Part shown: positions 10,106 to 38,931 of the stretch, in pieces
Layout of the letters: each line of letters starts with the position of its first letter
Numbering within the stretch: position 1 is the first letter of the stretch
Assembly (NCBI GenBank): GCA_035526025.1
Contig: DATLDE010000011.1
Coordinates: forward strand, 49,374 to 113,373
From: Candidatus Limnocylindrales bacterium
GTDB taxonomy: Bacteria; Patescibacteriota; Microgenomatia; Levybacterales; UBA12049
Direction: 5' to 3'
DNA length: 64,000 bases
The notes under the pieces: generated by a model
The model's input: the letters and a program-made list of their open reading frames with translations, nothing else
Database searches by the model: none
Told to the model about the DNA's origin: nothing
Translations under genes and position numbers: made by a program

Positions 10106-11827
10106 CTATAATAATATTGTCTTTTCGTGGTTCCAGTCAAAATGCGTAGCATTTTGATAGAGGAGCAACCGACGAAAAGCCGCAATCCGAATGCAATGAG
10201 GATAAAGGCTGCAGTCGAGTTGTGACGAGCGGACGTGGTGAAATGGTAGACACGCAAGTTTTAGGAACTTGTGCTCAAAAGGCTTGGAGGTTCGAGTCCT
10301 CTCGTCCGCACACAACAGTACAGTCTCATCCTTAAACCCTCGAATAGCCTGATATAACGGGCTAATCTTATGATTCAATGTACCATTATAGCTCCAAGCT
10401 AATCCTTCAGGGAACATTGAACCAAGCAGTACCTTAGCCTGACTTTGATTTGATCTTTTGTAAGCTTCCCCAAGATCTGCTAAGAGTGTCTTTATAAAAG
10501 ACGTAACTTTATCAATATTGTAATTCTCCATCGTTGCGTCATCTTTACTGATCAAAACTTGAGTAATTTGGTTTTCAATAGTTGCGTTTTGCTCCTTAAA
10601 GATTTCATCAGAATATACACCTGAAAGGTTTTTCTCAACTAACTGTTTTCTAAGAGCTTTAAGCCTCACTATCTCATCATCAGCATTATTTTTAATCTTA
10701 AGTAGCCTTGAATATCTTGCATGGTATGTCTTGTAAAGACAGGTTATGAAAAGATTAAGGCATTCTGTTTTGGGAGTAACTTCTTTGAGTAAATTTATCA
10801 GGACATTATCAAGATCATTTGTTTTAATTGATTTACTATTGCAGGGTTTACCACAGCGGTAATATTGATATTTAATGTGTCGCCCCTTACTCCATGCACC
10901 AGTTAAGCCAAATCCGCATTTTGAACACTTTATAATCCGTCTTAGCGGAAAATCAGGGTTAATGTGATTCCTTTTGGCTAAAGCCACTTTATTTGGGTTC
11001 CGACCGTCCAGAATGGCCTGTACCTTATAGAATTGCTCCTCTGTGATCATTGGTACATATTGTCCTTTTACTTCCTCATTGTATGTGTTTGAGGACAGAA
11101 TTCCCATATAAAACTTATTTCTAAAAAGTTCATTTACTCTCTGGCGAAGCAGGGGATACTCTTTTTGTTTACGCATATGCCTCAAGCCCCAGTCATTCAT
11201 AATTTCAGCCATCTCAGAAAGGCTCTTAGTGCCTGTCGCCATAAGATCCCATGCTTTTCTCATACTATCCCAAGCTTTTGGATCTTTTACCGCATAACCT
11301 GTCTGAACCATATAACCAAGAGGCACAGAGCCTGTAACGATCATTCCTGACAAAAACCGTGCTCTAAGCCCATTTCGTGACCTTTCTGAGCGGATATCAT
11401 TATCAAGTTGTGCAAAGCCAGCAAGAATTGTCTCAACCAGCTTTTCTGTTGGACTTTCTCCAGTTGGCTCGGAAATTGAAACAACATTTGCTCCGTATTC
11501 AGCAAGTTTTTTCCTTATACTTAAATAATCAGCAGTTATTCTTGAAATCCTATCTATTCTATAGACAAATACAGCTTGAACCCTATTCTTGTTTTTCCGG
11601 CAATACTCAAGTAGATTAATCAGAACAGGTCTTCCGGTTATGTTTTTAGCAGAACGCCCCTCTTCTCTAAATATTTCAATCACGTCATAGCCTCTTTTCT
11701 CCGCTTCTTTTCTGCACATACCCTCTTGGGTATCCAGGGAGAAGTTATCAACCTGCTCCTCAGTTGATACCCGAATGTAGATTACTGCTCTTTTCCCATC
11801 AGCATAAATTGCTTTTTGCGGTCTCAT
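10106..11827 (-). CDS. large serine recombinase (resolvase/invertase N-domain + recombinase domain + zinc ribbon)
   Basis: N-terminus AVIYIRVSTEEQ carries the catalytic Ser. Zinc ribbon: CSKCGFGLTGAWSKGRHIKYQYYRCGKPC. 573 aa. The last roughly 70 codons run antisense through tRNA-Leu(TAG) and beyond. The true C-terminus is uncertain. Confidence 0.8.
   Translation of the reverse strand: MRPQKAIYADGKRAVIYIRVSTEEQVDNFSLDTQEGMCRKEAEKRGYDVIEIFREEGRSAKNITGRPVLINLLEYCRKNKNRVQAVFVYRIDRISRITADYLSIRKKLAEYGANVVSISEPTGESPTEKLVETILAGFAQLDNDIRSERSRNGLRARFLSGMIVTGSVPLGYMVQTGYAVKDPKAWDSMRKAWDLMATGTKSLSEMAEIMNDWGLRHMRKQKEYPLLRQRVNELFRNKFYMGILSSNTYNEEVKGQYVPMITEEQFYKVQAILDGRNPNKVALAKRNHINPDFPLRRIIKCSKCGFGLTGAWSKGRHIKYQYYRCGKPCNSKSIKTNDLDNVLINLLKEVTPKTECLNLFITCLYKTYHARYSRLLKIKNNADDEIVRLKALRKQLVEKNLSGVYSDEIFKEQNATIENQITQVLISKDDATMENYNIDKVTSFIKTLLADLGEAYKRSNQSQAKVLLGSMFPEGLAWSYNGTLNHKISPLYQAIRGFKDETVLLCADERTRTSKPFEHKFLKLACLPFHHVRSSQLDCSLYPHCIRIAAFRRLLLYQNATHFDWNHEKTILL
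10229..10310 (+). tRNA. tRNA-Leu (anticodon TAG)
   Basis: GCGGACGTGGTGAAATGGTAGACACGCAAGTTTTAGGAACTTGTGCTCAAAAGGCTTGGAGGTTCGAGTCCTCTCGTCCGCA. Long variable arm. Confidence 0.8.
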
Positions 11828-12213
11828 AGGCCTCCTTTCTCATGAAGCAACTCATTTAAAGTTTTTCCTTCAAATATTTCTCGCTCAAAATCATCAAGCC
11901 AACTTTCAGCTAGGAATTGGACTTTTGTTACCGTATCTTTTAACTCATTTTCGCTAAATTGAGTAGCCATAGGACCTAACGCCTTTTTTGCCTCTTGAAT
12001 AATTTTTCCGTCATATTCTTGCTCCGGGAATAAATCATCCAAGGATTGTTTAAGTGATTGAGAAATTGGCTTGGGCGCAGAGACAGGTAGGGATTCATCT
12101 AAAACTTGTGCTAAAGGAGTAATTATCTTTTCTTGAGAAAGTGGCAACTGTTGAACTGCTGCATTCATATTTGGTCTATCAACATTGTCAATTTTCAAAG
12201 CTAAACTAGTCAT
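11824..12213 (-). CDS. hypothetical acidic protein, overlaps the recombinase start (ATGA)
   Basis: 129-aa ORF translationally coupled to the recombinase. Confidence 0.45.
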   Translation of the reverse strand: MTSLALKIDNVDRPNMNAAVQQLPLSQEKIITPLAQVLDESLPVSAPKPISQSLKQSLDDLFPEQEYDGKIIQEAKKALGPMATQFSENELKDTVTKVQFLAESWLDDFEREIFEGKTLNELLHEKGGL

Positions 12214-12454
12214 ATATGATTAGTATATAACTATATATGCCTAGTTGTCAATCGCCAAATTATTTGCTCTTATTAAGAGCTTTTAAGTGCTTTTACAATG
12301 CTTCTTTTAGGGGTCTTACCCCTCTAATGCAAGGGTAAAATGCACTCCTCATTCTTCGTCGCCCTTGCATTATTCACCCTGCTTATGACTTTCAGTCAGG
12401 TAGTCGGGCATGGGCATGCCCGACAAAAACAATTATGAGAAAGGAGGTGAGAAT

Positions 12455-12790
12455 ATGGAATTATTAACAGTAGAGCTTAAAGAGAAACTTCCAGCTCTTT
12501 ATGCTCAAGAGAAAGAGAGAGATCCATTGGTGTATATTAAATTCTTTGATCCAACCGGATCATGGACATGGTATGCAACTGAAGGTGAGGAGGCAGATGA
12601 TGACTTTCTTTTCTTTGGGTATGTTGTAGGACACGATTCAGAGCTTGGGTATTTTACTCTTAGCCAGCTGAGGAGTGCTAAAAAAGGCGTGAGCGGTATT
12701 TTGAGCTTACCAATAGAACGTGATCTATATTTCAAGCCATGCAGGCTTTCTGAGGTAAAAGGATTAAATCAGTCCATGTGTAAGTTTTAG
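12455..12790 (+). CDS. DUF2958 family protein (plasmid/ICE-associated)
   Basis: KFFDPTGSWTWYATEGEE...FGYVVGHDSELGYFTLSQL...ERDLYF matches my memory of the DUF2958 signature. Start taken at the ATG preceded by GAAAGGAGGTGAG. Track ORF is 12410..12790. Confidence 0.6.
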   Translation: MELLTVELKEKLPALYAQEKERDPLVYIKFFDPTGSWTWYATEGEEADDDFLFFGYVVGHDSELGYFTLSQLRSAKKGVSGILSLPIERDLYFKPCRLSEVKGLNQSMCKF

Positions 12791-12837
12791 TGATAGTGGG
12801 GTGCTGACAAAGTGCCCCACTATTCTAATATGCTAGA

Positions 12838-13629
12838 TTATTTTATACTTTCCCAAATACTTCCAGTTACGCCATTTGCTATTACATCCTCAGCTGTTGC
12901 GAACATGATTGATAACTCATCAGTGTTATCTTCCTCAAGTATTCTTTTAGTATAGCGTTTTGCATAAATCATCCTTTCCTTTGTTCCTCCGACAAAAAAT
13001 ATCATGGGAAAAGGTGAATTTATGTGGTTTTCCCACTCATTACTGTAGTAAAAATCTTTGTATGCGCGTATTCGTTTTCGTATTCTGTAATATGGAAGTT
13101 TCTCATCAAAAATAGTCAGTAGGAAGTATTGTATTTTTTTGCCCTTTTCTTTTTTAGAAAAACATATATCAACCGACAGATCAGAGTTTTTTAAAAATTT
13201 AAAGTCACTATCTTCATTACAGATATCGCTTTCGGTTGAATATGTGCGAGTTACGGTATCATTGTTTTTCCTCTCAAGCTCGCAGCAAATTCTAGAGATA
13301 AGTAAACAGTGTTGAATAAAGCTATCAGAGCGGGTCTTATCCCAGTAGAGTTTATGAATAAAATTTGTGTCATATTTTCCTTTTGCTTTTATATATCTTA
13401 TCCCGTTATTATCCAATGTATAGATTGCCGATATTCTGTTTTTCCCAATGATCGTATTGTCATATATTCTTTTGATGTATTTCTTCTCTGTTAGGTCTTT
13501 TAACCAGTTATTTATTCTTGCCTCGTCTTTGTGATTGAGGAGGGATTGGATATGTTGTCTGTTGAGGAATCTGTATCGTGGAATTAGTGTTGTTATTTCT
13601 TGTTGTTTGTTAGTTATGTTAGGTATCAT
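12838..13629 (-). CDS. replication-relaxation (Replic_Relax) family-like protein
   Basis: 263 aa. N-terminal wHTH-like region (LIPRYRFLNRQHIQSLL...WLKDLTEKKYIKRIY). Family call is tentative. Confidence 0.4.
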   Translation of the reverse strand: MIPNITNKQQEITTLIPRYRFLNRQHIQSLLNHKDEARINNWLKDLTEKKYIKRIYDNTIIGKNRISAIYTLDNNGIRYIKAKGKYDTNFIHKLYWDKTRSDSFIQHCLLISRICCELERKNNDTVTRTYSTESDICNEDSDFKFLKNSDLSVDICFSKKEKGKKIQYFLLTIFDEKLPYYRIRKRIRAYKDFYYSNEWENHINSPFPMIFFVGGTKERMIYAKRYTKRILEEDNTDELSIMFATAEDVIANGVTGSIWESIK

Positions 13630-13788
13630 TATGTTTGTTTTTTTTGTATATATTTATTTTTTACTTTTATTATTTATGCCATGCCCAACCGTATTAATAT
13701 ACTCCGTTATTTTTAAGGGTAGGTGTCACAATTCTATTGCATATTAGCTTCAAATTAGCTTAAAAATTGTCGTTAACATCAACGACAA

Positions 13789-16548
13789 TTAAATATATTG
13801 TTGTTTTATAGTTTTTATTCCTTTTTTAACCCCGTTTGTTTTTACTGTGAGCTTACTTGCTTCTAGCAATTGCTTATCTTTTTTTTCAGAGTCTGTTTTC
13901 TTTGTGTTTCCTTTTGTAGGTACTGCTTTGAACAATTTTTCCAGTTGCTTTTCAACATCTGCTTTTGGAGTCGCATAGTGTGCCCTTGAATTCTCAATAA
14001 TCTTTTTTGCTGTTTTGTCACTCCCTTGTTCTGTTACGGGTAACGTAACGCCTGAAAATGCATCTTCTGAATGCTCATTGGTCACTTTCATATAGAAGTG
14101 GTGTGGCGCAAGATTAACTATTGCCCCTTTTTCTACTTCCGGCTCAAGGAAGGGTAGAAGGATTTTTTCATCATCAGGTCCGTTTTTAAGAGCAATTAAG
14201 TTTCCACTATTACTTAAAACTATCTTTGATAATTTTGGATCTTCAATTTGGGCAATATTTTGATGAGACGGCGTGAAGTAAACATGATACTTTCTTGCTT
14301 CTGAAAAAAGATCAGTAAAATGCGCACTTGCAAAGTTTTGAAATTCATCGATATAAACATAGAAATGAGATCTATCTTTTTCCGGTATTGCGGCTCTGGC
14401 ATATACAGCCAGTTGGATAAGGGAAAGTATTAGCGTGCCAAAGAACGCACTCCGCTCTTCTCCAAGCTTCCCTTTTGAGAGATTTACCAGAAGAATTTTA
14501 CCCTTATCCATTATTGCTGAAATGTTAATTGTTGTATTTTTCTGAAGTAAGATATTTCTTGACAATTTATCTGTCATAAATTCACCCAGTTTGTTGGTCA
14601 AGGGGGAGGCAGCATCTGCCTGCTGAATTTTGCCATATGAGCTATACTCTTTTTCCCAGAATTGCTTTAATACAGGATCAGTAAGAGTTTGAGTAACAGT
14701 TCTTCTATAGTCCTTATCAGTTAACAGTTTTTGAATTGCCATTAAAGAAATGTATGGAGTCTCAGGAGTCGGAGTATGTACCTGGAGTGCAGTAAGCGTG
14801 GCATTTCTGAGGATATGCTCCATTTTCTGACCCCAATGCTTCTCTGGTGTTATTTTCATAAATACAGCCATTAATGACCTGGCAATGAAACCATGCTCCT
14901 CATCAATATCTGAGAATTTTATATCTGGGGAGAGTATATTAAGTCCCAATGGAAAATCTTTATCAGAAGGATTAATTAGGACTACATCTTTCAATCTGTG
15001 TTTGGGGATAAGAGTCAGTAAATGCTCAATCAAATCCCCATGAGGATCAAGAATTGCAATCCCTTTCCCATTTTGAATGTCTTGTAGTGCCATACCTTCA
15101 ATAATGGTTGTTTTACCCATACCTGTTTTACCGACAATGTACGTGTGCTCCTTTTTATTCTTATCAGTTAACCCTACTTCAGTTTTTTCTCCACCATAAT
15201 TATTTGTACCAACTACAACGTCAAACTGCGTTGCTGTTTTTTTAAATGAATGAGGAGCAGGTAGTTCCTTACTTTTGCTTTTAACCATATCCTCAGTTTT
15301 GGTTGTTTGAGTGTAAGGCAAGTGATAGATGCTTGAGAGTTCTGTAACTGATAAGAAAATTGTATGGGAAAAAGAAAGGAGCCTGTTACCAAGTTGGTAG
15401 ACAGAAAAGAGTAAAATATATTGTTTTATTCTTTTAGGAATGAATGATGAAAAAACTGTGTGACGCGGAATAATTGCCTGATACTGGGCATTATCAAATG
15501 TTGAAAGTGTTGCCTGGAACCCCCTTATCCTCTCCCTAACAATATTCGAGTTATTTCCAATAACAAGAAGTCGCATGCTTGTTTCAAACACAGGAAGTTG
15601 TAACTTATCCTGTACCTGCTGAAACAATACTTGTTGAGTAGCTGTTGGGGTAAAGACTTTCTTGGGCTTTGCCTCATAATTATTACGTGGAGCTGGTTGG
15701 TTACTGCTACTTCTCAGTGCAATATCAGCAAAAAAACCAATAATTCCAACTAATAACCCAAGAGTCCAATAAATTAATTTACTAATTACATTAATTGGAA
15801 AAACAATGACTGAAAGCAATCTATTCTTTTGAATAATTGGTGAAATATCCTTATTGTGCCAGAGGTGATTTAGTAGCTTATCTGCCTCCTGTGTTTTTGC
15901 CCTATTACTTGCCTTGTCCATAGGAGAAAGGATTAATTGCAGGGAAATAAGCTCCTGTGGTGCAAGCTTTGTCATATTGCCTGTTAGGTATGCAATTGGA
16001 TCATGCTCTCTTAGTTTTGTTTGATCTGTTAGAGGGATAGCGAAGTGGTTTACTAAACGGAATGTTATTAACCGTATAGCTTTACTTGCTGTGAGAAAAT
16101 TTCTTATGCCTTCAAATGATCGCGGAAGATAATCAGCTACCTCCTCTATCTCAACACTTGGTAAGTATGAAAGAAGTGTTTTTCGTATAACTGGGGCATC
16201 AGATTTAGCTGTGTGAATAAGATAACGGATTCCTTCTTCTTTGGTTGCAACAAGCTCAACACTGATTGTTGTTTTGTCATGTATAAATCTTTGCCAGAAT
16301 GTTTTTCCTTTGATTAGCGAATGGAGTTGGGTAAATAACTGCTCTGTAGCATAGGAACTCTGGAGTGTTTGCTTGATTGGTTTAATTGAAAGAACAACAT
16401 GTGGGGTATTGAGTTTCCTTTTTAGCAGTAAATACCTGGAGAGGAGATAAACTATGAGCAAAGTAAATGCTACGCATGAGAGTAATATTAAGTACGCTGG
16501 AAGAACTGCCAGAAATGATATATATTGTGTTGGCATATGCAATATCAA
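13789..16548 (-). CDS. conjugative-transfer-type P-loop ATPase (TraG/TraD/VirD4 coupling-protein-like, or VirB4-like), membrane anchored
   Basis: N-terminal TM helices. Walker A YIVGKTGMGKTTIIEG near residue 480, followed by IAILDPHGDL. Walker B YVYIDEFQNF. Lys-rich C-terminal tail. Confidence 0.6.
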   Translation of the reverse strand: MILHMPTQYISFLAVLPAYLILLSCVAFTLLIVYLLSRYLLLKRKLNTPHVVLSIKPIKQTLQSSYATEQLFTQLHSLIKGKTFWQRFIHDKTTISVELVATKEEGIRYLIHTAKSDAPVIRKTLLSYLPSVEIEEVADYLPRSFEGIRNFLTASKAIRLITFRLVNHFAIPLTDQTKLREHDPIAYLTGNMTKLAPQELISLQLILSPMDKASNRAKTQEADKLLNHLWHNKDISPIIQKNRLLSVIVFPINVISKLIYWTLGLLVGIIGFFADIALRSSSNQPAPRNNYEAKPKKVFTPTATQQVLFQQVQDKLQLPVFETSMRLLVIGNNSNIVRERIRGFQATLSTFDNAQYQAIIPRHTVFSSFIPKRIKQYILLFSVYQLGNRLLSFSHTIFLSVTELSSIYHLPYTQTTKTEDMVKSKSKELPAPHSFKKTATQFDVVVGTNNYGGEKTEVGLTDKNKKEHTYIVGKTGMGKTTIIEGMALQDIQNGKGIAILDPHGDLIEHLLTLIPKHRLKDVVLINPSDKDFPLGLNILSPDIKFSDIDEEHGFIARSLMAVFMKITPEKHWGQKMEHILRNATLTALQVHTPTPETPYISLMAIQKLLTDKDYRRTVTQTLTDPVLKQFWEKEYSSYGKIQQADAASPLTNKLGEFMTDKLSRNILLQKNTTINISAIMDKGKILLVNLSKGKLGEERSAFFGTLILSLIQLAVYARAAIPEKDRSHFYVYIDEFQNFASAHFTDLFSEARKYHVYFTPSHQNIAQIEDPKLSKIVLSNSGNLIALKNGPDDEKILLPFLEPEVEKGAIVNLAPHHFYMKVTNEHSEDAFSGVTLPVTEQGSDKTAKKIIENSRAHYATPKADVEKQLEKLFKAVPTKGNTKKTDSEKKDKQLLEASKLTVKTNGVKKGIKTIKQQYI

Positions 16549-29750: not shown

Positions 29751-29887
29751 TTGACCATTTGAAAAAAGTTTGCTATTATCAATTTATGAAATCACAAAAA
29801 TTTGTAACATTATCACTCCTTCTTAACCCGTAAGGGCGGGGAAGAATGTTGTGAATTGAATACCCGCCAACTGAGCGGGTTTTTTTG
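29751..29887 (+). promoter_or_regulatory. promoter + 15-codon Leu-rich leader ORF + intrinsic terminator (putative attenuator)
   Basis: Promoter: TTGACC 29751-56, 17-nt spacer, TATTAT 29774-79. Leader ATG at 29786 encodes MKSQKFVTLSLLLNP* (29786..29833). Terminator hairpin CCCGCCAACTGAGCGGG plus a T-run (29864..29887). The upstream GGGCGGGG (29834-41) could form an antiterminator. Confidence 0.5.
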
Positions 29888-29912: not shown

Positions 29913-30233
29913 ATGAGAAATGAGCAAGTACCATTAGAGGTATTAAGAGTAGCAACTGATACAAGATGGCATGATCAGGTTGCAGAAGTAATGAATAAAA
30001 GAAGACCGGGGGCTGTTACGGTCTTTGAGGCAACAGATGATCAACCTAAAGGATATTCATATCCTGTTGAAAGTCCGTTTAGAGCATTAACTAGAGCTGC
30101 ACAAAATTTTGACACAGCTTTAGAAGCTATTACACCTGACGCAGATGCCAGAGCAATAGAAGTCAGAAAAGCAATTAAAAAAGTTTATAAAGATCAAACC
30201 AAAAAAAGATTTGGTAGACGCAGGGGAAAATAA
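29913..30233 (+). CDS. hypothetical basic protein
   Basis: Start at the ATG after the RBS AAAGGAGGTGGG. Track ORF is 29856..30233. Arg-rich tail. Confidence 0.45.
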   Translation: MRNEQVPLEVLRVATDTRWHDQVAEVMNKRRPGAVTVFEATDDQPKGYSYPVESPFRALTRAAQNFDTALEAITPDADARAIEVRKAIKKVYKDQTKKRFGRRRGK

Positions 30234-30292
30234 CTTATCCTTATAATCAAAACTGTTTGGAGGCATATTGAAACAAAGGAGGTGAGTAAATT

Positions 30293-30700
30293 ATGAATAG
30301 AAACATAGAAGGAGATACAAGAGAAAGAATGGTAACTGGTGAAAATTTAGCCATGCAGTTAGCAGGTAAGGTTACAGCAACTCTTGATACAATGTCAGAA
30401 AAAGGTATACCAGATGGTGCTACTGTTGGGCGGTTAAAAGGTGTATTCCCACAAATCAGAGATAGGGATATTGATCGCATCTTGGGTAAATCGTCAAAAA
30501 GAATGGGAACCATAGTGGTACCACGCGATAGTGTTGTTAAATTGGTTGTAAGCGTTGGATATCCAAGTCAAGTTGGAAATAAACCCTTTGATAAAGCACT
30601 GGAAAGTGCAATTCGTGATGAAAATAGAAAGAGGGCCGAAGCGCAACGCCTTAAAAGAAATGGAGGAAGTGTTCAGTCTAGATCTTCCGGAGGAAAATGA
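30293..30700 (+). CDS. hypothetical basic protein
   Basis: RBS AAGGAGGTGAG precedes the ATG. 135 aa. Confidence 0.45.
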   Translation: MNRNIEGDTRERMVTGENLAMQLAGKVTATLDTMSEKGIPDGATVGRLKGVFPQIRDRDIDRILGKSSKRMGTIVVPRDSVVKLVVSVGYPSQVGNKPFDKALESAIRDENRKRAEAQRLKRNGGSVQSRSSGGK

Positions 30701-30724: not shown

Positions 30725-30855
30725 TTGACGAAAAAATATACTCGTGGTATTATAGCTTAGATGAAGGCGAAATTATTTTTAAATGAAATTAGTATTAACT
30801 CCTAGAGAGAGGTTCTATCGCGTTTGCAATGGACCTCCCGAACGGGAGTTTTTTT
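30725..30855 (+). promoter_or_regulatory. promoter + short leader ORF + hairpin/T-tract upstream of ilvA (putative attenuator)
   Basis: Promoter: TTGACG 30725-30, 17-nt spacer, TATTAT 30748-53. Leader ATG at 30761 encodes MKAKLFLNEISINS* (to 30805). Hairpin CTCCCGAACGGGAG plus 7 T (30835..30855) lies immediately before the ilvA ATG. Confidence 0.45.
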
Positions 30856-32106
30856 ATGCTTATGGAAGTTACTGTTAAAACAATTGATGACGCCGCGAAA
30901 ACACTGGAAAGTGTTGTGAAAAAGACACCTCTTCAGCACAATAAAAGATTATCTGATCAATTTGGTGCAAATATTTATTTTAAACGTGAAGACTTACAAG
31001 ACGTAAGGTCATATAAGATACGCGGTGCATATACTCTGATGAGCACTCTTAGTACGGAGGAGAAAAGTAAAGGGGTAGTTGCAGCGAGTGCCGGAAATCA
31101 TGCACAAGGCGTTGCGATGAGCGCAAGCCTTCTTAAGATAAAAGCGACCATTTTCATGCCGGTTATCACACCGCGTCAGAAAATAAACAAGGTAAAGCAT
31201 TTTGGAAAAGATTTTATAGAAATAAAACTTGTCGGGCAGGTATATGACGAAGCTTCCGCTGCAGCGTACGCATATTGTAAGGCACAAAAAATGGTATATG
31301 TTCACCCATTTAATGATCCACGAACAATGTCAGGGCAGGGAACAGTAGGTAAGGAGATATTGGAACAACTTGAATCATCACCTGATTATATTTTCTGCCC
31401 GATTGGCGGAGGAGGGCTTATATCAGGACTTGGTACTTACGTAAAAGAAAAGTATAAAGATACAAAAATAATTGGTGTTGAACCCAAAGGCGCTCCGGCG
31501 ATGTATGAATCCTTCAAACAAAAAAAAGTTATCACGCTAAACGATATAGATACATTTGTTGATGGTGCGGCAGTAACGACAGTCGGGGACCTGAGCTATA
31601 AGATCGCAAGCCTTGTAACAGACAAAATCGTTGTCAGTGATGAAGGGAAAATATGTACAACTATGATTGAGGTATATCAGAATGAGGGCATCATAGCAGA
31701 GCCAGCTGGTGCCTTATCAATTTCAGCAATAGATGATTTTGCAAAAGAAATAAAAGGCAAAACTGTAGTCTGCATTCTAAGTGGTGGGAATAACGATATT
31801 CTGCGCTATCCAGAAGTTATGGAAAAAAGCCTGGTGTATAGAGGGCTCAAACACTATTTTCTGATAGAATTTGCACAAAAACCAGGCCAGTTAAAACAAT
31901 TTTTAAATCACGCCCTCGGTCCAAATGATGACATTGTACTTTTCGAATACATAAAAAGAAATTCAAGAGAAAAAGGACCTGCATTAATTGGGGTTGAGTT
32001 AACAAAGAAAGAAGATTTATCAACACTTTTGGAAAGAATGAAAAAAATGCAGTTGCGTTATACTAAAATAACAAGTGATGATCCACTTTATGGATTTATA
32101 TTATGA
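30856..32106 (+). CDS. ilvA: threonine dehydratase (threonine ammonia-lyase) with C-terminal ACT-like regulatory domain
   Basis: TPLQHNKRLSDQFGANIYFKREDLQDVRSYKIRGAY and SAGNHAQGVA place it in the PLP fold-II family. Track ORF begins at 30829, but that ATG lies inside the hairpin. 30856 or 30862 is the more likely start. Confidence 0.75.
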   Translation: MLMEVTVKTIDDAAKTLESVVKKTPLQHNKRLSDQFGANIYFKREDLQDVRSYKIRGAYTLMSTLSTEEKSKGVVAASAGNHAQGVAMSASLLKIKATIFMPVITPRQKINKVKHFGKDFIEIKLVGQVYDEASAAAYAYCKAQKMVYVHPFNDPRTMSGQGTVGKEILEQLESSPDYIFCPIGGGGLISGLGTYVKEKYKDTKIIGVEPKGAPAMYESFKQKKVITLNDIDTFVDGAAVTTVGDLSYKIASLVTDKIVVSDEGKICTTMIEVYQNEGIIAEPAGALSISAIDDFAKEIKGKTVVCILSGGNNDILRYPEVMEKSLVYRGLKHYFLIEFAQKPGQLKQFLNHALGPNDDIVLFEYIKRNSREKGPALIGVELTKKEDLSTLLERMKKMQLRYTKITSDDPLYGFIL

Positions 32107-32189: not shown

Positions 32190-32561
32190 ATGAAAAAAAT
32201 TTACACTGATAAAGCACCCAGGCCTGTCGGCCCATATTCTCAGGCAATTATAAGCAATGGAATGGTATTTACAGCGGGACAAATTGGCCTGGATCCAATA
32301 TCAGGTAATCTGGTAGGAGTGGATATTGCAGAACAAACAACGCAAGTCATCAAAAATCTGAATGAAGTACTTACGGAAGCGGGTAGTTCCCTTCAAAAAG
32401 TTATTAAAACCACGTGTTACTTAAAAAATATGGATGATTATACTGTTTTCAATGAAATTTATGCAAAGCACTTTACAAATAATCCAGCGCGCTCAACTGT
32501 GGAAGTCTCCAAACTTCCTAAAGACGCGCTAATTGAAATAGAAGTAATCGCTGAGATTTGA
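32190..32561 (+). CDS. ridA: RidA/YjgF-family reactive-intermediate deaminase
   Basis: YSQAIISNGMVFTAGQIGLDP. 123 aa. Confidence 0.75.
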   Translation: MKKIYTDKAPRPVGPYSQAIISNGMVFTAGQIGLDPISGNLVGVDIAEQTTQVIKNLNEVLTEAGSSLQKVIKTTCYLKNMDDYTVFNEIYAKHFTNNPARSTVEVSKLPKDALIEIEVIAEI

Positions 32562-32571
32562 CTCTTCATTT

Positions 32572-33651
32572 ATGATTAATAAAAACCGCCTGATTAATAC
32601 ATTCCTGGAACTCGTGAAAATTGATAGCCCTTCTGGTGAGGAAAAAGCCATCAGTAAATTCATCGCTTTAAAGCTTTCTGATTTAGGTGGTGAAGTATCA
32701 TTTGACAGTTATGGAAATCTTCTTGGAAAGTTCAAAGGAACAGGGGACGCAATAATGCTAAACGCACATCTCGATACAGTTGAACCCGGACGTGGAATTT
32801 CACCTTTAGTTAAAAATGATCGTATTACAAGTGACGGCCGTACTGTTCTAGGCGCTGATGCAAAATCGGGAATTGCCATGATTTTGGAAGCTATCACTTC
32901 TCTTGTTGAGGATAAAATTTCTCACCTACCACTTGATGTATTGTTCACTGTTGAGGAGGAAACAGGCCTACATGGAGCTTCCAATCTTGACTATACGATG
33001 CTTGAAGCAAAATATGGAATAACTTTTGATGGACAAAGCTCGGTCAATAACATCACAAGTTCTGCTCCCGGGTTTATCCGGGTTGATGCAGCAGTTATAG
33101 GGCGGGGTGCCCATGCTGGCTATGAACCAGAAAAAGGATTATCTGCTATCAAAATAGCTGCAGAAATAATTACCAAACTTGATGTTGGAAGGATTGATTC
33201 TGAAACAACGGCAAATATAGGTACAATTCACGGAGGAAGTGTCAGAAATGCTGTCCCTGAGACTGTACATATTGAAGCTGAGATTAGAAGCAGAAATTTA
33301 GAAAAACTAAATGCTCACAAGACACACTTTGAAAAAGTCTTTAAAGATGCCTCCAAAAAATATACTGATGCAAAAATAGATCTAAATCTTTTTAAAGAAT
33401 TTGATCCTTATCTATTTGATGAAACACAACCACTCAAAAAAATGGCTCTTCAAGCAATTAAAAAAATAGGCCTTGTGCCAAGTCTTAAGCCTTCAGGGGG
33501 CGCAACTGATGTGAACATTTTTCATACAAAAGGATTGAAGGCTTTATGCGTAGGCGCTGGGTATTATAATGCTCACACAACACGTGAATACGCTGTTATT
33601 TCCAAAATGGTTCAAGGAGCCAAGTTTTGTGAAGAAATTGTAAAGATATAA
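32572..33651 (+). CDS. M20-family metallopeptidase (PepT/ArgE/DapE-like)
   Basis: NAHLDTVEPG carries the metal-binding His. Dimerisation-domain layout. 359 aa. Confidence 0.6.
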   Translation: MINKNRLINTFLELVKIDSPSGEEKAISKFIALKLSDLGGEVSFDSYGNLLGKFKGTGDAIMLNAHLDTVEPGRGISPLVKNDRITSDGRTVLGADAKSGIAMILEAITSLVEDKISHLPLDVLFTVEEETGLHGASNLDYTMLEAKYGITFDGQSSVNNITSSAPGFIRVDAAVIGRGAHAGYEPEKGLSAIKIAAEIITKLDVGRIDSETTANIGTIHGGSVRNAVPETVHIEAEIRSRNLEKLNAHKTHFEKVFKDASKKYTDAKIDLNLFKEFDPYLFDETQPLKKMALQAIKKIGLVPSLKPSGGATDVNIFHTKGLKALCVGAGYYNAHTTREYAVISKMVQGAKFCEEIVKI

Positions 33652-36661: not shown

Positions 36662-37012
36662 ATGGCAAGAGTAAAAAGAGGAACTATATCACGAAGAAAA
36701 CACGTTAAATTACTTTCCCTTACAAAAGGGTTTAAGGGTACGAAAAGTACACTTATAAAAGAAGCTAAATCAGCTAGTCTTCATGCTGGGCAATACGCAT
36801 ATCACGGAAGAAAAATCAAAAAAGGAGACTTCAGGACACTTTGGATCACAAGAATTGGTGAAGCTGTAAAATTACAAGGCCTTTCATACAGTGTATTTAT
36901 AGATAAACTTAAAAAAGCAAATATTGAACTTGATCGAAAAATATTAAGCAATCTATTGGTTGAGGACCCGGCAGCATTCAAGCACGTTGTTGACTCAGTC
37001 AACAAATCTTAG
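36662..37012 (+). CDS. rplT: 50S ribosomal protein L20
   Basis: MARVKRGTISRRKHVKLLSLTKGFKG. Confidence 0.9.
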   Translation: MARVKRGTISRRKHVKLLSLTKGFKGTKSTLIKEAKSASLHAGQYAYHGRKIKKGDFRTLWITRIGEAVKLQGLSYSVFIDKLKKANIELDRKILSNLLVEDPAAFKHVVDSVNKS

Positions 37013-37120
37013 TACGATAAACATATGATTAACAAGCAAATTTCTTGGAACTTCTATTATTTTACCACCCTTACCGGGATGGTTAAGTAATGGTAAATTA
37101 ACAAAATACCAAAACATAAA

Positions 37121-37143
37121 CCTCCCAGTTGGAGGTTTTTTTT
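37121..37143 (+). terminator. intrinsic terminator after rplT
   Basis: CCTCCCAGTTGGAGG followed by an 8-T run. Confidence 0.6.
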
Positions 37144-37161: not shown

Positions 37162-37536
37162 ATGATAAGAAATGAATTAAAACGAGACACTGTTGAGATA
37201 TGGCAACGAAGAAATTCAGGAACACCTGGGGGCGGAGATGTTATCACAGCTACATTATTTCCGTTGCCTCATGGCGCTGGTGTCCATAAATTTGATACTC
37301 CAACAGGTACTGTAACTGTTGATATGAGATTTGAAAATATAAATCCTGCAAACGAAACACAGCACGCTGTCGTAAAAGGTCCTCACACTGGTGGAAAAAT
37401 CGAGGTAGAGCTTAAAAATGGACGGGGGAGGTCAACGCCCACTCCAGATGTAGAAGTAGTTTGTGATGTATTCAAACTCACAAATGCATTAAAGGCAATG
37501 CACGCGCATGATAGTCGCCCTAGAAAGGGCTGGTAG
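37162..37536 (+). CDS. hypothetical protein (Gly/Thr/Pro-rich)
   Basis: Start at the internal ATG (MIRNELKR...) after the terminator. Track ORF is 37129..37536. Confidence 0.4.
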   Translation: MIRNELKRDTVEIWQRRNSGTPGGGDVITATLFPLPHGAGVHKFDTPTGTVTVDMRFENINPANETQHAVVKGPHTGGKIEVELKNGRGRSTPTPDVEVVCDVFKLTNALKAMHAHDSRPRKGW

Positions 37537-37549
37537 CCTAGTAATATAT

Positions 37550-37694
37550 TTGACTAAATTCAAATAGTTTGATATACTATATTCAGATGAAGAACCTAAC
37601 AAAAATAAATGCATTCTTTTTTGCCTTTGCGTAAGCGGAGGTAGTTTTTGCGTTAAAAAAACTAACTAACCTCCGAAAAGCGGAGGTTTTTTTA
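37550..37694 (+). promoter_or_regulatory. Phe-leader transcription attenuator (pheM/pheL-like) upstream of pheA-pheS-pheT
   Basis: Promoter: TTGACT 37550-55, 17-nt spacer, TATACT 37573-78. Leader ORF 37587..37634 encodes MKNLTKINAFFFAFA*. GCGGAGG (37635-41) can pair with CCTCCG (37670-75) as an antiterminator. The terminator CCTCCGAAAAGCGGAGG plus 7 T spans 37670..37693. Confidence 0.7.
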
Positions 37695-37707: not shown

Positions 37708-38931
37708 ATGACAAGAGCTGAAACAGCAACACAACCACCGAGTGATGTTTTGAGAAAAACTGAGGGTAGTCCTCTGCGTACTTATGCATATCTTAAGCCA
37801 AATGGTAACTTTACTCACTTGGCAGCTTTAGAATTGATAAAGCGACCTCAGCATGAATCTGCTATTCTAATTGGTGAAAGCGGAATCGATAATCTATTTG
37901 GATCAATTATATCTGGGCGTACATCACACGCGCTTATTCCCATTGAAAACTCCACTGAAGGACCTGTACCAAAGTCTCACGCTAATCTTTTTGAACATGA
38001 TGTTACCATAGTAGGCGAAATGAATATGCCTATAATTCCGTCTATTTATTATCAAGATAAAACCACGGTTAAAAAAGTCGCATCAAAAGACTCAGCTCTA
38101 GGACAGTGCAAGCAACACATCAGAAAGCATTTTGGAAGCGATGTAGAATTAATTGAAATGGAAAGCACAGGGGATGCTGTTGCGCTTGCAGCAAAAGATC
38201 CAACCGTAGCAGCTATAGGAAGTTCGATATCAGCCAGGGAACAAGGTATAGATAATTTGCATCAAATAGATAACTTTAATGACAAAGACTTAAACGCGAC
38301 AACATTCGCATTAGTTCAAAAGGGTGGCGAGCTTCCTTCACCCACAGGAGATGATAAAACAACTTTTATAATGACGATTGAGGACTCAAAAGGAAAATTG
38401 GTAGATGCTCTAGATGTGCTCGCAAAAAAAGGAGTAGATCTGAATAAAATTAAATCAATAAATAAAACTCTTGATACCGTAAGCTTCTTAGTTTCGGCAG
38501 ATGGACATGTTGATGATGAAGGCCCGACTGGCGCAGCGCTAATGGCTCTTGCCGAATCAGGTGTTATTGTAAAAAAACTTGGATCTTATCCAAAAGATGA
38601 TTACGCACCTCCTGAAAATAATGAAGATTATGATTTTGACGCAGCTATTGAGCGAATACAAAATGAAGCCAAAAACGGTGATGAAATGGATAAGAATAAA
38701 ACAATTGTTGTATTCACCCTACAAGATAAGCCAGGAGCACTTTTGGGTGCTTTAAAACCATTTGCTGACGAAGGAGTGAATTTAACCAAAATTGACTCAC
38801 AACCAAGCGGTATTCCAAATGAACATATTTTTTATCTTGCGTTTGATAATCAAACACCTCGTGCCGATGAGCTTATTACAGAATTAGGCAAACACTGTCA
38901 TCATGTTGCAAAATTGCAGCGTGCAGCATAA
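37708..38931 (+). CDS. pheA: prephenate dehydratase with two C-terminal ACT domains
   Basis: IPIENSTEGPV is the PDT ENS.EG motif. ACT-like segments TTFIMTIEDSKGKLVDALDVLAKKGVDLNKIKS and IVVFTLQDKPGALLGALKPFADEGVNLTKIDSQPS. Confidence 0.75.
   Translation: MTRAETATQPPSDVLRKTEGSPLRTYAYLKPNGNFTHLAALELIKRPQHESAILIGESGIDNLFGSIISGRTSHALIPIENSTEGPVPKSHANLFEHDVTIVGEMNMPIIPSIYYQDKTTVKKVASKDSALGQCKQHIRKHFGSDVELIEMESTGDAVALAAKDPTVAAIGSSISAREQGIDNLHQIDNFNDKDLNATTFALVQKGGELPSPTGDDKTTFIMTIEDSKGKLVDALDVLAKKGVDLNKIKSINKTLDTVSFLVSADGHVDDEGPTGAALMALAESGVIVKKLGSYPKDDYAPPENNEDYDFDAAIERIQNEAKNGDEMDKNKTIVVFTLQDKPGALLGALKPFADEGVNLTKIDSQPSGIPNEHIFYLAFDNQTPRADELITELGKHCHHVAKLQRAA

What the first reader, a model, noticed from the sequence alone, without database searches (positions are those of the whole stretch)
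30725..30858. Leader ORF plus hairpin directly abutting the ilvA start
A promoter (TTGACG-17-TATTAT) is followed by a leader ORF 7 nt later encoding MKAKLFLNEISINS, with Ile/Leu near the end. Then comes the hairpin CTCCCGAACGGGAG plus 7 T, ending 1 nt before the likely ilvA start. The hairpin's 3' arm, GGGAG, is also the only plausible Shine-Dalgarno for ilvA. It may therefore act transcriptionally (terminator) and/or translationally (SD sequestration) in response to Ile/Leu. The track start at 30829 would put the hairpin inside the coding region, which is unlikely.
Basis: partly seen in the sequence, partly recalled or inferred. Interest (0 to 1): 0.5.

Follow-up and report, generated by a model that had tools for sequence, protein, structure and literature searches.

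The report
Isoleucine leader-peptide attenuator before ilvA
The 130 bases in front of the threonine deaminase gene (ilvA) of this small-genome, Levybacteria-like bacterium form a classical ribosome-sensing isoleucine switch (promoter, tiny Ile-coded reading frame, alternative hairpins, terminator); this is a textbook mechanism, but I found no report of it in this bacterial group.

Summary
All the listed features are at the stated coordinates: promoter (30725-30753), 14-codon ORF (30761-30805), hairpin CTCCC-GAAC-GGGAG (30835-30848), U7 (30849-30855) and ATG 30856. Taken alone, none of them exceeds chance: promoter and terminator counts, folding energy and two Ile codons are all ordinary.

The comparative evidence is decisive. 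Eleven related loci carry the same unit upstream of ilvA. Their leader ORFs have 5-7 Ile among 13-15 codons (e.g. MTRQIIIIGIIIAP, MASQQFIIEIIINS). The -10 box lies 6-7 nt before the start codon in 12/12, so the leader appears to be translated leaderless. Each has an antiterminator that overlaps the terminator.

A ribosome-masking fold model gives a termination-competent RNA at every ribosome position except codons about 10-12. These are Ile codons in every relative and I-S-I in the window.

The window copy has lost three Ile codons but keeps the two in that sensitive window. The 30829 start is refuted; ilvA starts at 30856 or 30862.

In the window the terminator's 3' arm is the only Shine-Dalgarno, and L090 has the same layout. 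Added translational gating is therefore plausible but unproven.

The same window holds Leu-, Phe- (pheA-pheST) and aromatic-type paralogues. Verdict: new member of a known kind.

The parts
30725..30730 (+). -35 hexamer TTGACG
   Evidence: TTGAC[AG] lies at the same place in 11 of 12 homologous loci (TTGATT in L090).
30745..30753 (+). Extended -10 element TGgTATTAT
   Evidence: TAnnnT is present in 12/12 and an upstream TG in 11/12. It always lies 6-7 nt before the leader start codon.
30761..30805 (+). Leader ORF MKAKLFLNEISINS plus TAG stop. It is predicted to start at or 1 nt from the transcript 5' end, with no Shine-Dalgarno. Ile codons lie at 30788-30790 and 30794-30796 (codons 10 and 12).
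   Evidence: Orthologues have 5-7 Ile. The frame is open in 12/12.
30797..30803 (+). Segment 1 (AACUCCU), covering the last two codons plus the first base of the stop. It can pair with segment 4 (and weakly with segment 2), and is masked by a ribosome stalled on codons 10-12.
   Evidence: MFE. The 1:4 helix is 87-91% paired, with changes on both sides in 5 of 7 pairs across the family. The 1:2 pairing is not supported over slid controls.
30809..30837 (+). Antiterminator hairpin (segments 2:3): GAGGUUCUAU...AUGGACCUC, -11.9 kcal/mol. Its 3' strand takes CUC (30835-30837) from the terminator's 5' arm.
   Evidence: The equivalent hairpin is -12.5 to -17.1 kcal/mol in all 11 relatives. The distal pairs covary (UUC/GGA, UUU/AAA, UAU/AUA, UUUAG/CUAAA).
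30835..30848 (+). Terminator hairpin (segments 3:4): CUCCC-GAAC-GGGAG, about -7 kcal/mol.
   Evidence: It is 98% paired across 11 loci on a structure-blind alignment, against 22-64% when slid. L091 carries a fully changed stem, CCCGC/GCGGG.
30849..30855 (+). U-tract (7 T) of the intrinsic terminator. It also serves as the 7-nt spacer between GGGAG and ATG 30856.
   Evidence: At least 6 T (7 in most) in all 12 loci.
30844..30848 (+). GGGAG: the 3' arm of the terminator and the only Shine-Dalgarno candidate for ilvA.
   Evidence: Modelled pairing probability is 0.99 in free RNA and about 0.6 with a ribosome on codons 10-12.
30856..32106 (+). ilvA (threonine ammonia-lyase, one C-terminal regulatory domain). 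The start is ATG 30856 (best SD spacing) or ATG 30862 (public annotation; matches MEV[TSN]VKTID of the nearest orthologues). It is not 30829.
   Evidence: Pfam PALP plus Thr_dehydrat_C. NCBIfam NF006390 IlvA scores 621.6 bits against a cut-off of 421. P0001 is 100% identical at 414 aa.
32190..33651 (+). ridA (32190-32561) and an M20-family peptidase (32572-33651), probable co-transcribed genes (inferred).
   Evidence: Pfam. The order ilvA-ridA-M20 is kept in L002, L082-L085, L088 and L089.

Best explanation
This is an isoleucine-responsive, ribosome-mediated transcription attenuator of the ilvA-ridA-peptidase operon. It belongs to a family of such elements in Levybacteria-like CPR bacteria.

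Proposed mechanism:
1. Transcription starts about 7 nt after the -10 box, so the RNA begins with, or 1 nt before, the AUG of a 14-codon leader ORF. That ORF is translated without a Shine-Dalgarno (leaderless).
2. Four short segments follow: 1 = CUCC at the end of the ORF, 2 = GAGG+UUC, 3 = GGA+CCUCCC, 4 = GGGAG followed by U7.
3. With charged tRNA-Ile plentiful, the ribosome runs to the stop codon and covers segments 1 and 2. Segment 3 then pairs with 4 and RNA polymerase terminates at the U-tract.
4. With no ribosome on the RNA, 2:3 and 1:4 form a long hairpin that also ends at the U-tract, so the default is again termination.
5. Only a ribosome stalled on codons 10-12 (Ile-Ser-Ile here, Ile-Ile-Ile in relatives) masks segment 1 while leaving 2 free to take 3. 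Segment 4 is then left single-stranded and polymerase reads into ilvA.
6. In this window segment 4 is also the ilvA Shine-Dalgarno, so the same state that allows read-through also exposes the ribosome-binding site.

Shown: the anatomy, its conservation, the Ile-rich orthologous leaders, the mutually exclusive helices, and the identity of IlvA.
Inferred: the transcription start, leader translation, the ribosome footprint geometry, actual termination and its response to Ile, and the translational component.
For: - Anatomy at the stated coordinates.
- Eleven homologous units upstream of ilvA, with leaders MTRQIIIIGIIIAP, MVAQKFIIEIIIAP, MVGQTIIIGIINS, MLSKQIIIEIIINS, MASQQFIIEIIINS, MTEQSIIIKIIIAP, MPREFSIIAIIINS, MIKHSNIIAIIINS, MKRQGSIISIIINS, MRENIDSISIIIIP and (V)INQVISSIDIIITP.
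- At least 5 Ile occurs in only 13 of 514 background 12-16-codon ORFs, and 10 of those 13 are these leaders.
- Ile is kept through ATT/ATC/ATA changes (51/9/4). The -10-to-start gap is 6-7 nt in 12/12.
- The leader frame is open in 12/12, while the other two frames have stops in 9 and 10 of 12.
- The CUCC of segment 1 is kept although it sits in a different codon phase in the 'NS' and 'AP' leader types.
- The antiterminator (-11.9 to -17.1 kcal/mol) is stronger than the terminator (-5.2 to -9.6) in all 11 loci folded (L093 was not included), and the two overlap.
- Pair counts: terminator 98% paired against 22-64% when slid; nested 1:4 + 2:3 80.6% against 39-58% on a structure-blind alignment. 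With paralogues included, 14 of 18 pairs change on both sides and 0/500 shuffles reach the observed values (alignment fitted to the model).
- Ribosome-mask model: the bases next to the U-tract are paired with P >= 0.9 for A-site codons 1 to about 8-10. P rises again over the last codons and is >= 0.9 at the stop in 10/12 and >= 0.8 in 11/12 (L093 stays at 0.4-0.6). P drops to 0-0.5 around codons 10-12, which are Ile codons in every locus.
- The downstream gene is IlvA, the first enzyme specific to Ile synthesis. In L091 ilvB/ilvN follow in the same gene cluster.
Against: - The window's own leader has only 2 Ile. On its own it is statistically unremarkable, so sensitivity may be reduced.
- The 5-bp terminator stem is short (about -7 kcal/mol).
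- The antiterminator removes only 3 of the 5 terminator pairs here. In the model, segment 4 still has about 0.6 pairing probability in the 'stalled' state, against 0.1-0.2 in L083 and L084.
- The classical 1:2 hairpin is not supported over slid controls.
- The first Ile block of relatives (codons 6-8) lies outside the modelled sensitive window and is unexplained.
- There are no data on the transcription start, on translation or on termination.
- The fold model is an equilibrium model with an assumed footprint.
- No other ilv gene lies in the 64-kb window, so a complete Ile pathway in this organism is not shown.
Confidence: 0.75

Rival explanations
1. The window copy is a decayed attenuator. 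The family senses Ile, but this copy, having lost three of five Ile codons, no longer responds. It would act only as a fixed partial terminator or insulator behind a promoter, and as the terminator of the upstream genes 29913-30700.
For: - The window has 2 Ile against 5-7 in all 11 relatives. The differences are simple point changes (ATT to TTA, AAT, AGT).
- The modelled switch is less clean than in relatives.
- No terminator lies between the upstream gene's stop (30700) and the promoter.
Against: - The ORF length, stop position and all four RNA segments are intact.
- The window scores 86.8 bits, fifth of 12, against the family model.
- The two Ile codons that remain are exactly at the modelled sensitive positions 10 and 12.
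- From general knowledge, the E. coli trp leader works with two Trp codons.
Confidence: 0.13
2. Control is mainly translational. A leaderless sensory ORF acts by freeing a sequestered ribosome-binding site, as reported for mycobacterial poly-Cys leaderless short ORFs, and the U-tract hairpin contributes little termination.
For: - GGGAG is both the hairpin arm and the only SD. It is 99% paired in free RNA and partly freed by a stalled ribosome.
- The stem is short.
- The mycobacterial precedent is bioRxiv 10.1101/834739.
- ATG or GTG directly follows the U-tract in 17 of 24 family members.
Against: - At least six T (seven in most) follow the stem in all 12 loci. This is the signature of an intrinsic terminator and is not needed for SD sequestration.
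- In 8 of 12 loci a 30-154 nt spacer separates the hairpin from ilvA, which there has its own upstream sequence. SD masking therefore cannot be the conserved function.
Confidence: 0.07
3. The unit is an independent small gene: a roughly 95-nt sRNA or a 14-residue hydrophobic peptide with its own promoter and terminator, acting in trans and only incidentally next to ilvA.
For: - It is a self-contained promoter-to-terminator unit.
- In most relatives it is separated from ilvA by a spacer that may hold a second promoter.
- Terminated trp attenuator RNA and its peptide act in trans in Sinorhizobium (PMC7968998 and PMC7298713, listed).
Against: - It stays linked to ilvA across different upstream neighbours (DUF1361 gene in L090, unknown genes elsewhere).
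- The amino acid encoded matches the pathway of the downstream gene. The same logic holds for the Phe unit before pheA.
- The N-terminal half of the peptide is not conserved.
Confidence: 0.04
4. The features are a chance juxtaposition of a promoter-like site, a short ORF and a hairpin.
For: Single-sequence statistics are all within chance.
Against: Twelve loci share the unit, with covarying helices and Ile-rich leaders.
Confidence: 0.01

Closest known systems
E. coli/Salmonella ilvGMEDA attenuator (ilvL leader peptide) and the other classical enterobacterial leaders (trpL, hisL, thrL, leuL, pheL)
   Same: A short ORF rich in end-product codons, an overlapping antiterminator and terminator, and a U-tract. 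The regulated operon includes ilvA. Termination is the default both when the leader is fully translated and when it is not translated.
   Different: - The leader here is 14 codons and Ile-specific. From general knowledge, ilvL has 32 codons and is multivalent for Ile, Leu and Val.
- The leader ORF has no Shine-Dalgarno and starts at the predicted 5' end.
- The whole unit is only about 95 nt.
- All four segments share one CUCC/GGAG core, so 1:4 pairing is possible.
- There is no sequence or covariance-model similarity to any Rfam leader family.
Corynebacterium glutamicum ilvBNC attenuator (three-hairpin model; PMC11857589)
   Same: A branched-chain amino-acid leader peptide, with terminator, antiterminator and anti-antiterminator. 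The authors discuss translation initiation of the leader in terms of leaderless mRNA.
   Different: It is from a different phylum (Actinobacteria), controls a different target operon (ilvBNC) and has a multivalent leader. No homology was detected.
Mycobacterial leaderless poly-Cys short ORFs ('Cys ribulon'; bioRxiv 10.1101/834739)
   Same: A leaderless sensory short ORF. Ribosome stalling on a run of one amino acid's codons remodels downstream RNA. Several such units in one genome form a family.
   Different: That system is reported to act by freeing a sequestered ribosome-binding site. Here every member carries a canonical hairpin plus U-tract terminator, and SD masking applies in only some loci.
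Firmicute ilv-leu ribosome-mediated attenuators (S. aureus Leu-rich attenuator peptide, PMC5794164; Listeria Rli60, PMC5864092)
   Same: Leader-peptide control of branched-chain amino-acid biosynthesis outside the Proteobacteria.
   Different: They have a different amino-acid signal or architecture and work together with CodY. They were only listed and not read in detail.
T-box riboswitches for Ile/Leu genes
   Same: The same regulatory logic (uncharged-tRNA status decides between terminator and antiterminator) and the same class of target genes.
   Different: T-boxes bind tRNA directly, are at least 200 nt long and have conserved Stem I and T-box motifs. None is present and there is no Rfam match.

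Membership tests
Ribosome-mediated (leader-peptide) transcription attenuators of amino-acid operons | Short upstream ORF enriched in codons for the pathway's end product | tested here: met
   There are 5-7 Ile of 13-15 codons in 11 orthologous leaders. At least 5 Ile is otherwise seen in 3 of about 504 background short ORFs. The window copy itself has only 2 Ile (codons 10 and 12).
Ribosome-mediated (leader-peptide) transcription attenuators of amino-acid operons | Intrinsic terminator (GC-rich hairpin plus U-tract) between the leader ORF and the first structural gene | tested here: met
   CTCCC-GAAC-GGGAG plus T7 at 30835-30855. It is present in 12/12 loci and 98% paired.
Ribosome-mediated (leader-peptide) transcription attenuators of amino-acid operons | Alternative antiterminator helix sharing bases with the terminator's 5' arm | tested here: met
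   The 2:3 hairpin is -11.9 kcal/mol here and -12.5 to -17.1 in relatives, and overlaps the terminator arm. Its distal pairs covary.
Ribosome-mediated (leader-peptide) transcription attenuators of amino-acid operons | Regulatory codons placed so that a stalled ribosome favours the antiterminator and a ribosome at the stop codon favours the terminator | tested here: met
   In silico only. In the mask model, terminator competence dips at codons about 10-12 (Ile) in 12/12, and is >= 0.9 at the stop in 10/12 and >= 0.8 in 11/12 (L093 0.6).
Ribosome-mediated (leader-peptide) transcription attenuators of amino-acid operons | Anti-antiterminator (1:2) hairpin | tested here: inconclusive
   CUCC/GGAG around the stop codon can pair (-1.9 to -7.4 kcal/mol). 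The pairing is no better than slid controls. The 1:4 pairing is better supported.
Ribosome-mediated (leader-peptide) transcription attenuators of amino-acid operons | Regulated gene belongs to the pathway of the sensed amino acid | tested here: met
   IlvA by NCBIfam NF006390 at 621.6 bits. ilvB/ilvN follow in the same cluster in L091.
Ribosome-mediated (leader-peptide) transcription attenuators of amino-acid operons | The leader is translated, and read-through rises on starvation for the amino acid | not testable with these tools
   Only indirect evidence is available: a conserved open frame, synonymous Ile codon changes, and a conserved stop position.
Rfam leader families (Thr/Leu/His/Trp/Phe leaders and similar) | Match to the family covariance model at the gathering score | tested here: not met
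   There is no such match in the region at E <= 10. The best hit is the unrelated STnc220 at 24.6 bits against a gathering score of 60. The whole window gives only tRNAs, and five relatives give no hit over the leader or spacer (only tRNAs and sub-threshold matches overlying tRNA genes).
T-box riboswitch | Stem I with specifier loop and the conserved T-box antiterminator sequence; Rfam T-box match | tested here: not met
   No match at E <= 10. The leader is about 95 nt long.
Leaderless sensory short-ORF attenuators (mycobacterial type) | The short ORF starts at the transcript 5' end | tested here: inconclusive
   The prediction is consistent: the -10 box lies 6-7 nt before the start codon in 12/12 and there is no SD. 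No transcription-start data are available.
Leaderless sensory short-ORF attenuators (mycobacterial type) | An RNA duplex sequesters the downstream gene's ribosome-binding site and is opened by the stalled ribosome | tested here: inconclusive
   In the window, the SD is the terminator's 3' arm: P(paired) is 0.99 in free RNA and about 0.6 when stalled. This layout holds in only 4 of 12 loci.

The most novel reading that the evidence does not exclude
Levybacteria-like CPR bacteria, which have very few regulators, may run much of their amino-acid sensing through one modular family of roughly 95-nt leaderless leader-peptide attenuators. The family includes Ile, Leu, Phe, aromatic and Met-type leaders, sometimes in tandem. 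In the ancestral layout the terminator's 3' arm is the Shine-Dalgarno of the regulated gene, so one stalled ribosome would gate transcription and translation together. Several members control small proteins of unknown function, which would then be amino-acid-starvation effectors.
Probability: 0.3. Interest if true: 0.6.

Novelty: new member of a known kind. Interest (0 to 1): 0.45.

Why it matters
Ribosome-mediated attenuation is textbook biology. In the full-text library searched, I found no report of it for the Candidate Phyla Radiation / Patescibacteria. Four things follow from finding it here.

1. These reduced-genome organisms regulate ilvA, and apparently pheA-pheST, by sensing tRNA charging. 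That argues the pathways are used biosynthetically.
2. It gives a sequence signature (-10 box, 6-7 nt, AUG, codon run, CUCC/GGAG segments, U7) for finding more such switches. The codon runs could then be used to guess the function of unknown genes downstream.
3. It corrects a recurrent annotation error, in which IlvA starts are extended through the terminator.
4. It extends leaderless sensory ORFs, so far described in Actinobacteria, to a distant lineage. It also suggests a combined transcription and translation gate.

Tried and rejected
- **Rfam.** Permissive and gathering-threshold searches of the region, the whole window and five relatives found only tRNAs, sub-threshold matches overlying tRNA genes, and a sub-threshold STnc220 hit that just aligns the terminator. 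Known leader families and the T-box were rejected.
- **Single-sequence statistics.** Promoter and terminator counts, folding z-score and Ile count are all within chance. They cannot support the finding alone.
- **Metagenome scan.** The exact terminator pattern was too strict and gave one locus, L081. That locus turned out to be a paralogous tandem pair, not an ilvA leader.
- **Classical 1:2 hairpin.** It is not supported over slid controls.
- **Structure-blind covariation among the 11 ilvA leaders.** The signal is modest: 5 of 18 pairs change on both sides, and 128/500 shuffles reach that count. The strong signal needs the paralogues and a model-fitted alignment.
- **Ribosome-mask model on the paralogues.** Applied to the Leu, Phe and aromatic units it gives weak or no dips. 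Their assignment rests on peptide composition, the terminator and gene context only.
- **Unknown small proteins** (29913-30233, 30293-30700, 37162-37536). They have no Pfam or NCBIfam hit and no similarity to each other.
- **Other ilv genes in the window.** None were found.
- **Look-up of P0041** returned no DNA.
- **More distant relatives.** L003, L004, L005 and L092 (61-65% IlvA identity) have no leader directly before ilvA.
Full report
**What is in the sequence.**
- -35 TTGACG at 30725-30730, a 17-nt spacer, and an extended -10 TGgTATTAT at 30745-30753.
- Seven bases, then ATG 30761 opening a 14-codon ORF, MKAKLFLNEISINS, with stop TAG at 30803-30805.
- Hairpin CTCCC-GAAC-GGGAG at 30835-30848 and seven T at 30849-30855.
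- ATG 30856 follows immediately, in frame with ATG 30829 upstream and ATG 30862 downstream.

The stem is 5 bp with a 4-nt loop, and the T-run touches the ATG.

Taken alone, none of this exceeds chance:
- Promoter-like and terminator-like sites are no more frequent than in shuffles.
- The 116-nt fold has z = -0.72.
- Two Ile in a 14-codon ORF is ordinary: 29% of comparable short ORFs have at least two.
- Rfam has no family for it.

**Where the window comes from.** The flanking genes are trigger factor, a DUF5660 protein, two small unknown proteins, IlvA, RidA and an M20 peptidase. The same gene order is found in a complete 'Candidatus Levybacteria' chromosome (L002) and in several metagenome contigs whose IlvA is 68-83% identical. 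The window therefore belongs to a Levybacteria-like member of the Microgenomates/CPR. The organism labels of the public records disagree with each other.

**Comparative evidence for the leader peptide.** Eleven loci carry a homologous unit upstream of ilvA. From start codon to end of U-tract it measures 91-99 nt.

The leaders are MTRQIIIIGIIIAP, MVAQKFIIEIIIAP, MVGQTIIIGIINS, MLSKQIIIEIIINS, MASQQFIIEIIINS, MTEQSIIIKIIIAP, MPREFSIIAIIINS, MIKHSNIIAIIINS, MKRQGSIISIIINS, MRENIDSISIIIIP and (V)INQVISSIDIIITP.
- Five or more Ile occurs in 13 of 514 background 12-16-codon ORFs, and 10 of those 13 are these leaders.
- Ile is maintained through synonymous changes (ATT 51, ATC 9, ATA 4), while the N-terminal residues drift.
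- The leader frame is open in 12/12. The other two frames contain stops in 9 and 10 of 12.
- The CUCC motif at the ORF end is kept although it sits in a different codon phase in the '...NS*' and '...AP*' leader types. This points to an RNA role for that stretch.

The window leader aligns codon for codon with MASQQFIIEIIINS. It differs at three Ile codons by point changes (ATT to TTA, AAT and AGT) and keeps Ile at codons 10 and 12.

**Promoter and leaderless start.** All 12 loci have a TTGAC[AG]-like -35 (TTGATT in L090), a 17-18 nt spacer and a TAnnnT -10. Eleven of the 12 have an upstream TG. The -10 box ends 6-7 nt before the leader start codon in every case, and no Shine-Dalgarno is present. 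The predicted transcript therefore begins at, or 1 nt before, the AUG (GUG in L091).

Leaderless sensory leader ORFs are known from Actinobacteria:
- the C. glutamicum ilvBNC attenuator (PMC11857589);
- mycobacterial poly-Cys short ORFs (bioRxiv 10.1101/834739).

I found no paper that connects CPR/Patescibacteria with leader-peptide or transcription attenuation.

**RNA structures.** Four segments share one core:
- segment 1, CUCC, at the end of the ORF;
- segment 2, G(G)AGG plus UUY;
- segment 3, RAA plus CCUCC(C);
- segment 4, GGGAG followed by U7.

In each of the 11 loci folded (L093 was added later and not folded there):
- a 2:3 hairpin (-11.9 kcal/mol in the window, -12.5 to -17.1 in relatives) overlaps the 5' arm of the 3:4 terminator (-5.2 to -9.6);
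- the full-length minimum-energy fold is the nested pair 1:4 + 2:3, a long hairpin that also ends at the U-tract.

On a structure-blind MAFFT alignment of 11 loci:
- the terminator is 98% paired, against 22-64% when slid;
- the nested fold is 80.6% paired, against 39-58% when slid.

Covariation there is modest because the sequences are close. L091 has a completely exchanged stem set (CCCGC/GCGGG).

A covariance model built from the 12 leaders also finds paralogous units. On that model-fitted 20-sequence alignment, 14 of 18 pairs change on both sides and no shuffle reaches the observed values. The terminator is 88% paired. The textbook 1:2 hairpin is not distinguishable from slid controls. I leave open whether untranslated RNA terminates through 1:2 + 3:4 or through the 1:4/2:3 hairpin.

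**Does the geometry fit attenuation?** I masked the bases a ribosome would cover (A-site -15 to +12) at each codon in turn. I then computed the probability that the two stem bases next to the U-tract are paired.
- The probability is at least 0.9 for A-site codons 1 to about 8-10. It rises again over the last codons and is at least 0.9 at the stop in 10 of 12 loci and at least 0.8 in 11 of 12 (L093 stays at 0.4-0.6 after its dip). Free RNA gives 0.56 in L093 and 0.90-1.00 in the rest.
- It falls to 0-0.5 around codons 10-12.
- Those codons are Ile-Ile-Ile in most relatives, the corresponding Ile codons in L090 and L091, and Ile-Ser-Ile in the window.

Stalling for lack of Ile-tRNA is therefore the one state that leaves segment 4 unpaired. 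A ribosome that reaches the stop codon, or no ribosome at all, gives termination. This is an equilibrium model with an assumed footprint, so it is inference rather than measurement.

The window's switch is less clean than in L082-L084. Its antiterminator removes only 3 of the 5 terminator pairs, and segment 4 keeps about 0.6 pairing probability in the stalled state.

**The start of ilvA and the abutting hairpin.**
- The protein is IlvA: Pfam PALP plus one Thr_dehydrat_C domain, and NCBIfam NF006390 at 621.6 bits.
- Of the 60 orthologue N-termini printed, most have 3-6 residues (up to about 9) before V[KQ]TI[DE].
- The few much longer ones are unconserved over-extensions. Two of them read '...GGFFVF...', which is a hairpin plus U-tract translated, just as the 30829 start gives MDLPNGSFF.
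- The identical public protein is 414 aa and starts at ATG 30862.

The 30829 start is therefore refuted. Between 30856 and 30862 the evidence is split:
- GGGAG lies an ideal 7 nt before 30856. L093 has the same layout, U7-ATG followed by an in-frame ATG three codons later.
- 30862 gives the MEV[TSN]VKTID N-terminus of the nearest orthologues.

The hairpin abuts ilvA, at 0-6 nt, in the window, L093, L090 and L091. A spacer of 30-154 nt intervenes in the other eight loci. The spacers are of at least three unrelated kinds. On a rough IlvA tree the abutting state sits on the deepest leader-bearing branches as well as in the crown. This is consistent with an ancestral abutting layout followed by several later insertions.

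Where the hairpin abuts, segment 4 is the only Shine-Dalgarno. The read-through state would then also expose the ribosome-binding site, the mode reported for the mycobacterial short ORFs. This part is plausible, is not conserved, and is untested.

**Rivals.**
- Decayed, non-responsive copy (0.13). Against it: the ORF, stop codon and segments are intact, the model score is high, and Ile is retained at exactly the sensitive codons.
- Purely translational control (0.07). Against it: the at-least-six-T U-tract in all 12 loci and the spacers in 8 of 12 loci.
- Independent sRNA or peptide gene (0.04). Against it: the unit stays linked to ilvA despite changing upstream neighbours, and the amino acid matches the pathway.
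- Chance (0.01). The comparative data exclude it.

**Comparison with the known.**
- It works like the enterobacterial ilvL, trpL and pheL attenuators and like the C. glutamicum ilvBNC attenuator.
- It shares the leaderless sensory ORF with the actinobacterial cases.
- It is not a member of any Rfam leader family, nor a T-box.

I file it as a new member of a known kind. Its distinctive traits are small size, leaderless initiation, one CUCC/GGAG core used by all four segments, and, in some loci, a terminator arm that doubles as the Shine-Dalgarno.

**Beyond the finding.** The same window holds three more units of the same build.

| Type | Coordinates | Leader peptide | Downstream genes |
|---|---|---|---|
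| Leu | 29751-29886 | MKSQKFVTLSLLLNP | two unknown genes directly upstream of this element |
| Aromatic | 36990-37143 | MINKQISWNFYYFTTLTGMVK | an unknown gene |
| Phe | 37551-37693 | MKNLTKINAFFFAFA | pheA-pheS-pheT |

Relatives add tandem and Met-rich versions, and a Gottesmanbacteria member. Ribosome-mediated attenuation thus looks like a general regulatory device in these organisms. This broader picture, rather than the single ilvA leader, is what would deserve follow-up.

Noticed in passing
window 29751-29886: A second unit of the same build. It has TTGACC-17-TATTAT, 6 nt, then ATG 29786 encoding MKSQKFVTLSLLLNP*, then terminator ACCCGC-CAACTGA-GCGGGT plus T7. It lies upstream of two genes with no Pfam or NCBIfam hit (29913-30233 and 30293-30700). 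The Leu run (L[SA]LLL and variants) is conserved in L002, L082, L083, L085, L088 and L089. The unit scores 30.9 bits against the Ile-leader model. It is probably a Leu attenuator controlling unknown proteins.
   Followed up: partly
window 37551-37693: A Phe-type unit. It has TTGACT-17-TATACT, 8 nt, then ATG 37587 encoding MKNLTKINAFFFAFA*, then terminator CCTCCG-AAAAG-CGGAGG plus T7. ATG follows directly, opening a 5-codon mini-ORF whose TGA overlaps the pheA ATG. Downstream lie prephenate dehydratase+ACT (37708-38931), pheS and pheT. The peptide resembles E. coli pheL. No relatives were examined, and the fold model gives only a weak dip.
   Followed up: partly
window 36990-37143: An aromatic-type unit. 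It has TTGACT-17-TACGAT, 6 nt, then ATG 37025 encoding MINKQISWNFYYFTTLTGMVK*, then terminator AACCTCC-CAGT-TGGAGGTT plus T8. It lies upstream of an unknown 124-aa gene (37162-37536) that sits just before the Phe unit. This mirrors the Leu-unit/unknown-genes/Ile-unit arrangement at 29.7-30.9 kb.
   Followed up: partly
L002 2636-2745 and 2748-2881; L081 1206-1479: Tandem attenuator-like units. In L002 a mixed Val/Leu/Ile leader (MKKVIYSLVVLLIAP*) with its own terminator sits directly before the Ile unit. In L081 two units with Met-containing leaders (MKKFIFNKVLMMQAA*...NNLMEMMKPP...) precede an unknown gene.
   Followed up: partly
L003 2211-2342; L092 2807-2913: Family members outside the ilvA-leader clade.
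- In a Gottesmanbacteria contig (L003), MNRQNLLINVINVLLIGGIDVLGGM* plus a terminator lies upstream of two small unknown genes that precede ilvA.
- In L092, MKPARILTNRTLLTNP* plus a terminator lies downstream of ilvA, before an unknown gene.
   Followed up: no
first codon after the U-tract in 24 family members (e.g. window 30856, 29887, 37694): ATG or GTG directly follows the U-tract in 17 of 24 units, 7 nt after the GGAG-like 3' arm. Where a spacer follows, this opens a 2-31 codon mini-ORF. It could be a relic of an ancestral abutting gene start or a functional ribosome loading site.
   Followed up: partly
L001 695-793; L083 2886-3000; L002 2882-2994; L084 2952-3057; L088 2847-3000: The spacers inserted between the attenuator and ilvA in relatives fall into at least two recognisable kinds.
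- L001 and L083 carry inverted repeats of the ATTCCC-N8-GGGAAT type (MITE-like).
- L002, L084 and L088 share a stretch with a TATACAAT/CACATAAT -10-like box and a conserved ATCCGCC...GGCGGAT helix, with no Rfam match. This could be a second promoter and an unknown structured RNA.
   Followed up: no
L002 2995-4262: In the complete Levybacteria chromosome record, ilvA is split into a 53-aa ORF and a 362-aa ORF (P0017). This is a frameshift, either a pseudogene or an assembly error.
   Followed up: no
public proteins P0007, P0020, P0025, P0038, P0041; window 30829: A recurrent annotation error: IlvA starts are extended upstream through the attenuator, giving unconserved N-termini. Examples are 'GGFFVF' in P0038 and P0041 and MDLPNGSFF in the window track.
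   Followed up: yes
window 30783-30878: A 31-codon ORF in another frame (MKLVLTPRERFYRVCNGPPEREFFYAYGSYC) starts inside the leader and runs across the attenuator into ilvA. Its ATG is created by the window-specific AAT GAA codons and is absent from relatives. It is probably meaningless.
   Followed up: partly
window 10106-16548: A large serine recombinase (10106-11827, minus strand) lies beside tRNA-Leu (10229-10311), with a TrwB/HerA-like ATPase at 13789-16548. This may be an integrated mobile element.
   Followed up: no
records behind P0001, L001, L004, L093: Organism labels of clearly related contigs disagree: Limnocylindrales, Lysobacterales/Xanthomonadales, Micrarchaeota, Saccharimonadales and Levybacteria. 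These are likely binning or labelling errors in automated MAG submissions.
   Followed up: no
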